A stretch of 64,000 nucleotides of DNA from Eledone cirrhosa (lineage: Eukaryota): positions 17,670,001 through 17,734,000 of the forward strand of contig OZ024744.1 of the NCBI GenBank assembly GCA_964016885.1, in the 5' to 3' direction. This document shows, piece after piece, positions 7,175-64,000 of the stretch (position 1 is the stretch's first letter; each line of letters starts with the position of its first letter). The position numbers and the translations under genes were made by a program. Below the pieces are notes generated by a model that saw only the letters and a program-made list of their open reading frames with translations, made no database searches and had not been told where the DNA came from.

Positions 7175-7930
7175 TATAACAACTAGAAATTGATTAACAT
7201 ATAAATAAACATATGAAACAATCACAGGGGATCATTTTTACAAGTGTGTAACCACACATAGCTAGGTAGGTAACTAAATAAAGTTGACTAGAACTTCAAA
7301 AATAGATACCTTATAATATGATTAATCTTCCCTGTATATATTCCATTAAAGAAATATATTTCACCAATTAATCGAATGGTAAACCACGGAGGCCGATACT
7401 TGGATTTTCAACTGTTTCTAGTTGTCGATAACCCTATTCACGCCACTGGGACGAAGCTGGTATGATGTGTGTATTTTTATTAGATACAGCACGTGTTACT
7501 GGCCAGTCGCTGATTTGAACTGCTGATTTGAACTGCGTAAACACAGATGGCTGGACTTCTTCCTTGTTGAAAATCCAAGTATCGGCCTCCGTGGTTTACC
7601 ATTCGATTAATTGGTGAAATATATTTCTTTAATGGAATATATACAGGGAAGATTAATCATATTATGAGGTATCTATTTTTGAAGTTCTGGTCAACTTTAT
7701 TTAGTTACCTACCTAGCTATGTGTGCTTACACACTTGTAAAAATTATCCCCTGTGATTGTTTCATATGTTTATTTATATGTTAATCAATTTCTAGTTGTT
7801 ATAAAATGCTCGGACCTATTCATTAGAATCTTGGAGCTTATTTTACGGGTGATATGGCGCATGCCTTTCTGGCATGACACCCATAATTTTGATTTAGATT
7901 AAATTTACTTTGATTTATCTTAATTTTGTA
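7175..7930 (+). mobile_element. Non-coding fold-back element (PLE-tail derivative) in (TA)n; 238-bp inverted arms 7175-7412 and 7566-7803
   Basis: Arms are near-perfect reverse complements, flanked by (TA)n, and contain an HHR. Confidence 0.8.
7559..7651 (+). ncRNA. Type I hammerhead ribozyme, U3-A8 core variant
   Basis: Stem I CTTCCTTG/CAGGGAAG; core TTGAAAA (7567-7573); stem II CCAA..TTGG; GAAA (7616); stem III ATATATTTC/GGAATATAT; AUA cleavage triplet. Confidence 0.75.
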
Positions 7931-8427
7931 TATATATATATATATATATATATATGTGTGTGTATATATATATATATATATATATATATATATATATATA
8001 TATATATATATGAATGAAAAGTATAGAAATTATTGTAGTAAGAAGCCAACAGTATTCCATAATATATATAAATAAATAAATAAATAAATATTTGCTCTAC
8101 GGTTCTTATATATTTTATATATATTTATTCTTATCGAGCCCACTTCAAATTTATTATTATTACTATATATATATATATATATATATATATATATATATAT
8201 ATATATATATATATATATATATATATATATATATATATGTATGTGTGTGTGTGTGTGTGTGTGTGTGTGTGTGTTATAATAATATATCACACGCATCACG
8301 TTAAAACTACTTTATACTTTATTTGTCAAATAATTTGTGCATGTCCATGCATTTAAATCTCTCTCTCTCTCTCCACCTTTCTCTTTATCTCCCATTCTCT
8401 CTCCATCCTGATTCTCCTTCTAAAGTG

Positions 8428-11400
8428 CTACCTAAAGAAGGGAATGAGTTGTTGTCCGGAGCGAAAGGCATCTGTCGTCAGTCCTCTCAATCTCGTCCAC
8501 CATATAACCTCTTTCACCATAGCCACTATACAGAGGAAAACCGCGTCTCTTTCGTTTTTGAAAGAAGTTGGCGGTTTGATCCTTACTCTGGACTCGGCAG
8601 TCAACTGGATTTGTCCCATACGCGACAGCAGTTGTTCTGCGTAGTTCCACAGGTCGGTTAGGCCCGGGCAGTGTACAATTGTGTGCAAGACGGTTTCAAT
8701 GCACTGCTCGCATCTTGACACGTCCTCTTGGAAGGATCCCTGCCGGGGCGTCCGGGCCTGTAGATCTTGTCTCGAACTGTTAGAGCTCCTCGGTTCCACT
8801 GCCAGGCCAGGGACCTCTGGAAGTAGTTCATAGGTCCTTGGCAGAAAGTCCTACCAAACAGACTGGTGAGTTCCTCGTCTTCGACGCCTAGAGTCTCTCC
8901 GAGCACGTCGTCGCCCTTCTGACGAACTAACCCTCTATAGAATGTCGAAGTGGAGTCTCCACTGATTGCTATGCCCGCTTGACAGATGTCTGTCAGCGCC
9001 TGAGCTCATTCAATGTGCTAGGCGCCCTTCTTCTTCTGTCTCCGCTTGACCCAGGACTGCAGCTCCGCCAGCGAGACAATTTGCGGGAAGGTCTGTCTCA
9101 CAAACGGTTCCCACACCGGTTGGTCGGTGAGCAATACCTGCAGATGCCGTAGCCTCAGCGCATGTTTGCGCATCATTATCCACGGCATTCCAAGCCCTCC
9201 GTTGGAAGGGTGCTGACAGCAGACGGATCTCCTCACCAATGGAGCCTGCTTCTTCCAAAGGAACTGGAGTAGCATGCGTTCCATCTTGGTGAGGTATTCA
9301 CGGGGACAAGGCACGACAGTCAAGCGGTAGTATATGACGGACGCTATGAAAGTGTTCGCCACCTCCGCTCAACCTTTCAAGGATAGTTTGCACTCTGCCC
9401 ACTTCTGGGTGAGCGCAAATACCTTGGCCATGACCCCGTTCCAGTTTTCTCCACCTGGAGGTCCGGACCGAACCAGACCCCGAACAATTTCACCGGTTCG
9501 TCCGTCCAGCGTCCGACAACACTCTCGGACGCCATCGGTTTGCCTCTCCACGTTCCGAGTTGCAAACCGACAGACTTGTCCGGGTTCAGTTTTGCTCCTG
9601 TGAGCCTTTTGTATTCCTGCAGGAAGTTGCCGATCGCCCCGATTTCCGAGGGTTTCGACACCATTACGGATACGTCGTCTGCATAAGCCGACGCCGCTTT
9701 CCGCAGTCTCGGTTCCAACGGGATGCCGGGATGCCCTGCAGCAGCTCCAACTTCCGCAGTAGTGGCTCCATAGTCAGCACGTACTGGATGGAGGAGAGAG
9801 GGCATCCCTGTCGGATGGAACGCGTGATTGCGAACGGCTTCGATAGGTAGCCGTTCACCTTGATCGTCGAGCAGATGTTGGTGTGCATTGCATCGATCCA
9901 GCCTCTGAAGACGGGTCCGAAACCGGCCGCCTTGAGAACCGCTTCCAAGTATCGATGGTCGACCCTATCGAACGCCTTAGACTGATCTAAATTGATCAGA
10001 GCCCCACCGAAGCCGGCTTTACATCCCACCCCCTCTATGATGTATTGCATGAGGTGGAGATTGTCGTGTATGGACCTGGTCGGGATTGCACACGTTTGCG
10101 CTTTCCCTATCAGTTTTCGACGATAAGTGCCAACCTCGTTGCCAATACCTTGGCCAAAATCTTTTACTCGGTGTTGAGCAGAACTATGGGCCTAAAGTTG
10201 CTTAGTTCGTCCCCCTTGTTCTCGTCTTTCCTGATCAGCGTTACTACGCCCCTGCCTGCAGAACTGGAAATTCTCCCGTTCTGCTGCCAGTTGCAGTAGA
10301 GAGCTTCGAGGACGCCAGAGAACAAGTCCGGCATTCCTATGTAAAACTTATAGGGTAGACCATCTAGACCGGGTGATTGGCGTTTCCAGTGGCTCAGAGC
10401 GTCCCGTATCTCAGTGGCTGTGATCGATCTTTCTCAGAACTCGGCGTCCATGCTCGAGAGACGCGGCAGGCCGTCGAGGTATGAACCGAAGTCCATTGCT
10501 CCGATTGACGCACCGCTACTCTGCTCTAACAGTTGCGCAAAGTGTCGCTGAAAGTCCGCGCACATCCGCTTGGAGTCAAGTAGCTCGCGTCCATTTTGGT
10601 CTTTCAAAGATCGAATCGTGGACTTGTTGCCACTTTTTGCCTCTGCTACTCGGGCCCAGCTAACAGCTTTTGCTCCCTCGTTTCCTAGAGCACGTGATTT
10701 ACTTCTGACCACGCAGTCTTCGTGTTTTGCGTCGAAGAAGTGGTCCAGTGTCATTCACGTTGCCACTCCTAAGCGCCTCCTCTGCCTTGGCTCCTAGTTC
10801 TGTTACTGTTTTGTTTTTCTCTAAGGTTAATTTTCTGCTAAAATCTATCGACTCTACTCTAATTGCTTTCTTGAGGGAGTACCACCATCTGTTGTTGACG
10901 ATGGCTCCCATCAACTGTTGCTTTACTAATCTACTTATCCCTTCACTGTAGGCTTTACGTGTCAGTAGCGACACGTTCAGCTTCCAGTATCCGGGTCCTT
11001 CTTGTTTATGTATTCTATCACGGTTGAATATGCAGATGACTAGTTTGTGGTCTGAATAGGCAACCATGTGCATTTGTGGACAGTTTAACATATTCTTGTC
11101 TCTCTCTCTAATAAAGAACCTGTCTAAATACGATCTAGATGTCCCGCTGCGGTTTGTCCACGTCCATTGTGGTGCAGTTGGGAAATCTAGTCGATACCTA
11201 TCGGCCAGTTGGAATTGGCCGATTAAAGTTTTGAGGCTGTTGCACCCCCTTTACTTAGACATGATCCTACATAGTCCCAACGTGCATCTAGGATACCATT
11301 CCAGTCCTCCACTAAAAGCAAGGAACGAGACGTTCCAGAAAAGACTCTAGACGCTTAAAGAAGTCTGGCCGCGATTGCCCAGTCGGGGTATAAACGGCTA

Positions 11401-62589: not shown

Positions 62590-62625
62590 CCCTGATGAGT
62601 CCTTAATAGGACGAAACATTGTTGG
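62590..62625 (+). ncRNA. Hammerhead motif in a PLE-like tail of about 110 bp between (TA)n tracts
   Basis: CC-CTGATGA-GTCCT(TAAT)AGGAC-GAAA-CATTG-TT-GG; stem I and cleavage site degenerate. Confidence 0.65.
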
Positions 62626-62807
62626 ATAATAAAGACTTTTGATGTATTGAAGGCTTCTTTGGTTTATTTTCATAATATATATATATATATATGCATCTTT
62701 TAATATATGTGTATATATATATATATATATATATATACATATACATACACACATATATATATATACACACACACACACACACACACATATATATATATAT
62801 ATATATA

Positions 62808-64000
62808 TAACAAAGGAATTGTGGTAATGAATCAGATGGACCATAACGCACCAGAGTACTCAATACTTAGGGTAGTAGAGTGGGAAATAGGAAAAAGTAT
62901 GAACCCGACGGCAGAACTCAGGCCGTTTCGACGGCTACTTCCGGACTAAATTATAATTTTTAGCCCGGTGAATAAATAGCCGAACTTTTCAAGGGCGTAC
63001 TTCCTTATATGGGAAGATTTTAGTTGTCAAGAGGATTGGTTGAAATTTGTTGTAAACACAAATAAGTTTTGTCATGGCATTTTGTGTGAGGTAGGGGTGG
63101 CTGAACTTGCCTGTAGGACAATAGGGGAGTGACAGGAGTGGTCAAGCGCTGCAAGTGATATGTATACAGCAGAATATGAGGATAGAGTATGCAGTGGAGG
63201 TATGTCACTGTGGTTGAGGTGTGTTGTCCTATAGGAGCAGGGCACTTGACTGAACGACCGTGGAGTCCGGATCAGCCTGTCCCGGCGCAGGCGATGTTCC
63301 TCCCTAAGGTGACGTGCGTAGTCAGATGTGCATCTTGGGTTATTTTGGTTTACCCCATAGGGCATATAATGTCATCAGGGTATGGTGTTAGGTCCCTTAA
63401 ACCCGTTTCGTCGCTCAGGTCGGTGCGTGCTTCGGCGCATGCCCCTAGCCTGGAATTCCCGGAGGGTTCCATGCGGCGTAAGTGCACCTTCTCTGGTGTC
63501 TAGAGGTCATGATAATTTCAGATTTCAGGTTGACCGCGTCATCCTTCAGTCTGACTATCTCCATGGCCTCGTATAGGCATAATCTGCACTTTCTACTTCC
63601 AGCCGAGTATGCATTCGCATGCCGAACGATACTCCATTCAGGAGGTCCACTAACCTAGTGGAGTGCCTCTTGCTTCGGTCCTTGAAGGACTTCGTGTGGT
63701 TATACTTCCGCGATTTAAAGGTCGTGGGTGTTGCGCCGTTGTAGGTGCGTTTTATATTTTGGGTTCTAACCACACATTTGTATACCAAGTCCTTCGTCAA
63801 GCATTTTCCCTGTAGGGGGCACTGGGTGCCCGCTCTGCAGTTACATATTCTGTGGTTACTTAGTTCGCTTCTGACGCCTGGCCCTCGATTTACTAGGGCC
63901 CTATCACGATTCTCAGTGTGTTGTTCCGCCGGCACGTTGATCTCCCCCACGGCACTCGTTCCCTCCTGGCGTTGGATTGTATTACCTTCCGCGGGCGTGC
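62808..64000 (-). mobile_element. PLE 3' portion (CNC..CPL..C GIY-YIG type) with 3' UTR ending in (TA)n
   Basis: CNCRAGTQCPLQGKCLTKDLVYKCVV..TYNGAT..FKSRKYNHTKSF. Confidence 0.85.
62903..62996 (-). ncRNA. Type I hammerhead, U3-A8 core, long stem II, non-palindromic stem III
   Basis: GCCC-TTGAAAA; CGGCTA/TAGCCG and CCGGGCTAAA/TTTAGTCCGG; GAAA; ACGGC(CTGAGTTCT)GCCGT; C; GGGT. Confidence 0.78.

What the first reader, a model, noticed from the sequence alone, without database searches (positions are those of the whole stretch)
7559..62996. Recurrent U3-A8 (UUGANAA) hammerhead ribozymes across several unrelated retro-element tails
Seen: five loci (7559+, 32711+, 36350-, 61632-/61767+, 62903-) fold as type I HHRs with stems I-III, GAAA and an NUH site, but the first core segment is TTGAAAA, TTGACAA or TTGATAA instead of CTGANGA. 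Their stems are mostly unrelated in sequence (about four families). Established: C3-G8 is a tertiary Watson-Crick pair and U3-A8 is the compensatory swap; PLEs carry HHRs. Inference: a double compensatory change repeated in this many families implies selection for activity. This rare variant may be a dominant core in this genome, and CUGANGA-based searches would miss it.
Basis: partly seen in the sequence, partly recalled or inferred. Interest (0 to 1): 0.85.

Follow-up and report, generated by a model that had tools for sequence, protein, structure and literature searches.

The report
U-A core hammerheads in Penelope elements
These five sites are copies of small, likely self-cutting RNA motifs (hammerheads) carried by several families of Penelope-type jumping genes; their swapped U-A core pair is already in print and is common here but not the majority form, and the fresh point is one lineage that multiplied to about 1,460 copies with that pair mismatched.

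Summary
All five loci fold as type I hammerheads with U3-A8, and this core is each family's majority state, not decay. They belong to repeat families in G000: two Hydra-type Penelope-like elements (B, C), one with a Neptune/Nematis-type linker and intact 775-aa ORFs (D, 12,495 pattern matches, control 0) and a 570-bp non-coding unit (A). U3-A8 is published (Perreault 2011; about 1,300 in Schistosoma PLEs, Cervera 2014), and this scan noted it twice in other genomes. Support for selection: family E has C-G and U-A subfamilies one short branch apart (37 and 57 of 100 listed, no U·G), and position 7 varies freely. Against strict selection: 1,463 of 5,686 family C matches carry mismatched C3·A8 (95 of 100 with G7), a lineage that kept amplifying, then likely returned to U-A; a sister lineage went to C-G. 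Cleavage is untested. Known variant at unusual scale, with one testable twist.

The parts
7558..7652 (+). Family A type I hammerhead, U3 7567, A8 7572, predicted cut after A17 7643; part of a 570-bp non-coding tandem-forming unit
7175..7412 (-). Inverted, 5'-truncated copy of the family A end; keeps the core but lacks the 5' strand of stem I
   Evidence: (I3)
32709..32852 (+). Family B type I hammerhead, U3 32718, A8 32723; terminal repeat of a Hydra-type PLE (endonuclease seen upstream in L289, L290, L292)
36352..36443 (-). Decayed hammerhead of group C2 (sister of family C), U3 36440, A8 36435
61632..61669 (-). Family D minimal hammerhead (U3 61665), inverted partner copy
61767..61804 (+). 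Family D minimal hammerhead (U3 61771); 3' end of a young PLE with intact 775-aa ORFs elsewhere; the two copies form the inverted repeat 61529-61906
62903..62996 (-). Family C type I hammerhead, U3 62992, A8 62987, site GUC; terminal repeat of a Hydra-type PLE (695-aa frame in L346)
33211..33258 (-).
62590..62625 (+). Family F minimal hammerhead, canonical C3-G8, decayed stem I; Hydra-type PLE
14481..16241 (+). PLE ORF, 586 aa, RVT_1 + GIY-YIG, between inverted repeats 13812-14333 and 16252-16773
16618..16652 (+). Minimal hammerhead of that PLE, C3-G8 with U4C; inverted copy at 13933-13967 -
20927..21021 (.). Inverted pair of family C 3' halves without the first core segment; a second such pair at 33505-33623

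Best explanation
The five loci are type I hammerhead motifs with a U3-A8 core pair, copied by several families of Penelope-like retroelements and non-coding tandem units, and the motifs likely cut the precursor RNA of the active parent elements. Shown: the folds, the family-wide U-A state, the RT/GIY-YIG partners of B, C and D, the tandem and inverted insertion pattern next to (TA)n, and a C-G/U-A swap inside family E. Inferred from established hammerhead chemistry: U3-A8 keeps the 3-8 tertiary pair, so cleavage at the NUH site should survive. D and B, with short palindromic stem III, would cut mainly as dimers from head-to-tail copies (D copies 3.9 kb apart in L324). A and C, with 9- and 5-bp stem III, could cut as monomers, and A and E would release about 570- and 320-nt units. 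Selection acts on parent elements and is loose: family C amplified through a long C3·A8 phase before likely regaining U-A, while a sister group went to C-G. The window copies are likely inert fragments; A and D sit in long inverted repeats that would pair them off in a read-through transcript.
For: Folds and coordinates. U-A hits 17 vs 0.1 in shuffles. Family A: 99 of 100 and 94 of 100 listed matches are U3-A8, while N7 is A, C or U by subfamily. Family D: 77 of 77 distinct fetched copies U3-A8; many 775-aa open frames among 150 scored matches; RVT_1 and GIY-YIG. Family E: hand count of the 100 listed of 1,293 gives 57 U-A, 37 C-G, 2 C·A, 0 U·G, 4 other; one change on the tree with core positions masked, support 100/98, path about 0.05; 97.6% of cells paired, with two-sided changes at 3-8, 10.1-11.1 and 10.2-11.2. 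In the C superfamily both exits from a mismatch restore a Watson-Crick pair. Literature: natural U3-A8, active in vitro per their ref. 32, and U10.1-U11.1 tolerated (PMC3088659); U3-A8 in Schistosoma PLE repeats (PMC4209133).
Against: No cleavage data for any of these RNAs. 1,463 of 5,686 family C matches are C3·A8 and span about 0.24 changes per column of tree backbone, so an intact 3-8 pair was not needed for amplification there. Hammerhead mutants did not reduce insertion by an anole PLE in vitro, and no RNA-seq reads ended at its cut site (PMC11167929, passages). Metazoan PLE hammerheads cut poorly in vitro (PMC4209133). Naiad PLEs thrive without them (PMC8557442, passages). The swap in E is one event, not 57. 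For B, D, E and F the hammerhead fold lies 3-7 kcal/mol above the monomer MFE.
Confidence: 0.72

Rival explanations
1. The hammerheads are near-dispensable passengers: U3-A8 spread by founder effects of a few successful parent elements, and cleavage contributes little to their amplification.
For: C3·A8 lineage amplified to 1,463 matches; U4C cores are shared by several copies of other families and by the window's own PLE; catalytic mutants insert normally in vitro (PMC11167929); copy counts are dominated by one young family, D.
Against: U-A occurs in at least 7 families in the sample, in two PLE clades. N7 changes between subfamilies while 3 and 8 stay paired in A. The double change in E lies on a short branch, with stem II covariation. 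Mismatch was twice resolved to a Watson-Crick pair in the C superfamily.
Confidence: 0.2
2. The fold is kept as a structural signal (a binding site for the element's protein, or a template boundary) rather than for cleavage, so the 3-8 pair matters only for folding.
For: Insertions end a short, fixed distance after the motif and truncated inverted copies begin around it; low in vitro activity of PLE motifs.
Against: Catalytic core letters and NUH sites are kept in all families seen, whereas stems share no sequence between families.
Confidence: 0.07
3. The motifs are chance matches in AT-rich DNA, or decayed canonical hammerheads.
For: UUGAAAA is common in AT-rich DNA; two of the 17 sampled U-A hits (L200, L238) are single copies and may be chance; the 36440 copy is decayed.
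Against: Shuffle mean 0.1 vs 17; reversed-pattern controls 0-1; U3-A8 is the majority in each family; G8 appears in only 8 matches of the C superfamily genome-wide.
Confidence: 0.01

Closest known systems
U3-A8 minimal hammerheads of Cercyon PLEs in Schistosoma mansoni (Cervera and De la Pena 2014, PMC4209133; parts 1-2 of 4 read)
   Same: Same core covariation, in PLE terminal repeats, mostly single or inverted copies, found only with an altered descriptor (about 1,300 hits).
   Different: Here at least about 18,000 matches by my sum over families A, C, D and E, in Hydra-type and Neptune/Nematis-type PLEs and non-coding units. Several have long stems II and III. Both states are seen inside one family, plus an amplified C3·A8 lineage.
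Natural core variants of hammerheads (Perreault et al. 2011, PMC3088659; passages and part 3 of 8 read)
   Same: Reports natural U3-A8 covariation, U10.1-U11.1 and mentions U4C; all three occur here.
   Different: No C3·A8 lineage in the text I read; supplements (Figs S6, S7) not seen.
Hydra-clade PLEs (Craig et al. 2021, PMC8557442; section 11 and passages read)
   Same: Families B, C, F: CxCX5C linker; DKT in C and F; (TA)n insertion; hammerheads present.
   Different: Paper reports canonical hammerheads; B and C carry U3-A8 or C3·A8. Its supplementary hammerhead file was not read and may list such cores.
Non-LTR retrozymes (Cervera and De la Pena 2020, PMC7229834, passages; bioRxiv 10.64898/2026.07.22.740005, part 1 of 5)
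   Same: Families A and E are non-coding, AT-rich units with one type I hammerhead, in head-to-tail repeats.
   Different: A's unit (570 bp) exceeds the 150-450 bp range; arrays seen were dimers to tetramers with PLE-like inversions; circular RNA not testable here.

Membership tests
Type I hammerhead ribozyme | Stems I-III around the junction, ends in stem I | tested here: met
   (A, B, C; C2 has only a 2-bp stem I; D's stem III needs a partner); for E
Type I hammerhead ribozyme | U4 G5 A6, A9, G12 A13 A14, A15.1-U16.1, NUH site | tested here: met
Type I hammerhead ribozyme | Watson-Crick pair between positions 3 and 8 | tested here: met
   U-A at all five loci and in family majorities; not met in 1,463 of 5,686 family C matches
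Type I hammerhead ribozyme | Site-specific self-cleavage | not testable with these tools
   needs transcription assays
Type I hammerhead ribozyme | Stem I / stem II tertiary contacts | not tested
   no 3D RNA tool used
Penelope-like element (EN+) | Single ORF with RT and C-terminal GIY-YIG | tested here: met
   D: RVT_1 E 1.3e-6 (just under the curated cut-off), GIY-YIG E 2.9e-6; B: GIY-YIG E 1.3e-4. C gave no Pfam hit but aligns to D (E 2e-6) and to B (E 2e-38)
Penelope-like element (EN+) | Terminal repeat with hammerhead; 5' truncation, tandem and inverted copies | tested here: met
   L324; L346, L347
Penelope-like element (EN+) | Own ORF for families A and E | tested here: not met
   570-bp and 320-bp units without a coding partner in the loci held; a partner elsewhere is not excluded
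Hydra clade (B, C) | CxCX5C linker; DKT in place of DKG; no GxKF/Y | tested here: met
   CxCX5C in B and C; DKT and no GxKF/Y in C (N-terminus of B not held)
Hydra clade (B, C) | N-terminal RWK motif; no CCHH in EN; placement in the Hydra clade of an RT tree | tested here: inconclusive
   RW[KR] found in C and F, read as RWR; CCHH and reference tree not tested
Neptune or Nematis clade (D) | CX2-5CxxC linker before GIY-YIG | tested here: met
   the two clades were not told apart
Non-LTR retrozyme (A, E) | Non-coding tandem unit with one type I hammerhead | tested here: met
Non-LTR retrozyme (A, E) | Expressed as circular RNA | not testable with these tools
   needs RNA data

The most novel reading that the evidence does not exclude
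The CUGAGAA core of family C is an active, non-Watson-Crick hammerhead state that serves as a stepping stone between C3-G8 and U3-A8: G at position 7 lets C3 pair in a slipped register (or a C·A pair is tolerated), so the lineage kept cutting and amplifying to about 1,460 copies. The genome would then hold a whole compensatory path (U-A, C·A, back to U-A, and separately C-G) as dated subfamilies that can be assayed one by one.
Probability: 0.2. Interest if true: 0.65.

Novelty: new member of a known kind. Interest (0 to 1): 0.36.

Why it matters
Annotation: CUGANGA-only descriptors would miss about a quarter to a third of the hammerheads in this genome, including those of its largest family found. 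Evolution: families C and E give matched natural RNAs with C-G, U-A and C·A at the catalytic 3-8 pair in nearly the same scaffold. Assaying them addresses an open question, whether PLE hammerheads are needed for transposition or ride along, and how a compensatory change crosses its mismatched intermediate.

Tried and rejected
Rfam scan of the window: no hammerhead family among the 150 of 238 matches shown, which were mostly microsatellite-driven miRNA hits. DNA search with the 76-base D query found nothing because common words are skipped; a pattern then gave 12,495. The endonuclease near the D copy in L055, the ORFs near E copies in L249 and L252, and the 926-aa ORF near A copies in L297 were rejected as partners: they belong to neighbouring elements. 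The idea that C·A copies come from decay of a C7-G8 CpG fits only stray copies (family G: 2 of 100). The idea of a C3·A8 subfamily in A was rejected (3 of 100). 'C3·A8 is the ancestral state leading from C-G to U-A in family C' is not favoured: the outgroup roots the family on a U-A branch, with unstarred support 81/78. A first structure string for family E was misregistered in stems I and III and was corrected. Sequencing runs: no RNA holder listed, which is no evidence on expression. Lunse et al. 2017 (small PLE hammerhead variants) was not held and may describe such cores; supplements of all papers were not read. Paper searches for C3U+G8A, G8A+rescue and C3-A8/U3-G8/UUGANAA/CUGANAA found no report of an amplified C3·A8 lineage; the one listed paper showed none in the passages read. 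Searches with 'octopus' and 'cephalopod' rested on my guess from sequence style; the organism was not determined.
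Full report
Observation. The five loci are as described. Constrained folding gives the coordinates: A 7558-7652 +, B 32709-32852 +, C2 36352-36443 -, D 61632-61669 - and 61767-61804 +, C 62903-62996 -. Each has U3 and A8, GAAA and an NUH site. C folds as a hammerhead at its MFE, A within about 1 kcal/mol; B is 3 above; D needs a partner for its palindromic stem III; C2 is decayed.

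Families. The window lies in G000, 3.0 Gb, organism not determined. Each locus belongs to a repeat family. A: 499 + 399 pattern matches, of which 99 and 94 of the 100 listed are U3-A8, with position 7 A, C or U by subfamily (hand counts); its unit is 570 bp, non-coding, head-to-tail. B: UUGACAA in most of the 30 best loci of 1,763 candidates (chosen by likeness to the query), with a GIY-YIG endonuclease upstream. C: 5,686 matches, with a 695-aa frame. D: 12,495 matches, control 0; 77 of 77 distinct fetched copies are U3-A8; many intact 775-aa frames; tandem copies 3.9 kb apart. By the motifs in Craig et al. (PMC8557442, section 11), B and C are Hydra-type and D has a Neptune/Nematis-type linker; no reference tree was built. 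U3-A8 therefore sits in two PLE clades and in non-coding units. Summing A, C, D and E gives about 18,000 U3-A8 matches; this is my estimate, since N3 was not in the D pattern and the E share comes from 100 listed rows.

Is it dominant? I took 119 evenly spaced 10-kb stretches (one of 120 did not exist) and scanned them with a descriptor neutral for positions 3 and 8. At score 23 or more: 43 C-G, 17 U-A, 3 C·A, 3 other of 66; shuffle means 0.1 for C-G and for U-A. Collapsing arrays gives 24, 15 and 3; the U-A share is 0.36 (95% CI 0.22-0.52). Two U-A hits may be chance. The descriptor misses motifs with irregular stem II, such as most B copies, so shares are approximate. By family, the sample holds about 7 U-A and 13 C-G families (my count). 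Common, but not dominant.

Evidence for selection. Family E (1,293 matches), a 320-bp non-coding unit, has both cores: of the 100 listed, 57 U-A, 37 C-G, 2 C·A, 2 C·C, 1 A·G, 1 G·G, 0 U·G (hand count). With core positions masked, 20 copies split by core on one branch (100/98), about 0.05 changes per column apart. On 13 distinct rows the structure is 97.6% paired, with two-sided changes at 3-8 and in stem II. This is one evolutionary event, but a clean one.

Evidence against strict selection. In family C, 24 of the 100 listed and 1,463 of 5,686 overall are C3·A8, 95 of 100 with G7. G8 is nearly absent: 8 matches, 4 of them C-G. The C·A copies share linked variants, so they were copied from parents carrying the mismatch. 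A tree of 53 of 75 copies (22 dropped for lacking a close neighbour over the region) puts them on the backbone between two U-A groups. With 19 chosen C rows and 7 rows of the sister group C2 as outgroup, the root falls beside the window-type U-A group (81/78, unstarred); U-A as one clade is rejected (p-AU 1e-40; groups defined by core state after I had seen earlier trees); and two C2 copies with CUGAGGA nest among U-A copies. The simplest reading is U-A to C·A for about 0.24 changes per column, then back to U-A, and separately U-A to C-G. Mosaic repeats could distort this. Keeping G7 over that path is not by itself improbable, so a rescue by G7 is a hypothesis only.

How it likely works. The 3-8 pair is a tertiary Watson-Crick pair, and U-A versions are active in vitro (PMC3088659, citing its ref. 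32). Parent elements would cut precursor RNA at N17: D and B as dimers through palindromic stem III, A and C possibly as monomers, A and E releasing unit-length RNAs as proposed for retrozymes (PMC4209133; PMC7229834). None of this was measured here. Against a strict need, single 3 or 8 mutants abolished cleavage but not insertion for an anole PLE in vitro (PMC11167929), which fits the C·A lineage. The window copies are truncated, and A and D lie in long inverted repeats, so they are probably inert.

What is known. Natural U3-A8 was reported in 2011 (PMC3088659) and in Schistosoma PLE repeats with about 1,300 hits in 2014 (PMC4209133). This scan noted U3-A8 PLE hammerheads in two other genomes and nothing in this one. 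I found no printed account of an amplified C3·A8 lineage, but Lunse et al. 2017 was not available and no supplements were read.

Verdict. Real, correctly read, already-known variant; the scale, the within-family swap and the mismatched lineage are the additions. Interest 0.36.

Noticed in passing
window 13812-16773: PLE with an open 586-aa RT + GIY-YIG frame and a 522-bp perfect inverted repeat; both hammerhead copies have U4C, while a relative in L152 has U4.
   Followed up: partly
L324 1447-7683; L325 1804-4128: Family D is a very young PLE: identical 775-aa frames in tandem, and many intact frames among 150 scored matches.
   Followed up: partly
L326-L345 (G000:C1): Family C subfamilies with C3·A8 core, 1,463 matches genome-wide; L367 and L368 are sister copies with canonical CUGAGGA.
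   Followed up: yes
L175 4212-9766; L154 252-2579: Tandem arrays of about 556-bp and 467-bp units, each with a C3-G8 hammerhead; retrozyme-like.
   Followed up: no
L207 4759; L200 7400; L085: Families in which several copies share a U4C core (CCGAAGA or CCGAUGA) with intact stems.
   Followed up: no
L130 571; L195 3909; L133 1459: Two further U3-A8 families not present in the window; the first shares a short hairpin-like word in stem II with C3-G8 family G (L135).
   Followed up: no
window 62056-62122 -: Rfam tRNA match (36.8 bits, above the gathering score of 29) overlapping an inverted repeat at 62089-62225; possibly a tRNA-derived SINE.
   Followed up: no
window 18721, 21990, 25041, 28510, 29992, 32000, 32169, 36062, 41549, 54109: Abundant repeat of about 180 bp, one copy nested upstream of the family B hammerhead.
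   Followed up: no
window 8400-10200 and 38200-59600: Several broken LINE-like copies (RVT_1, zf-RVT, Exo_endo_phos hits).
   Followed up: no
window 31-3150: Tandem arrays with 40-bp and 9-bp periods, followed by long microsatellite tracts.
   Followed up: no
L139, L172, L174, L092: Older relatives of family D keep UUGAAAA but have GCAA in place of GAAA, shared by several copies.
   Followed up: no
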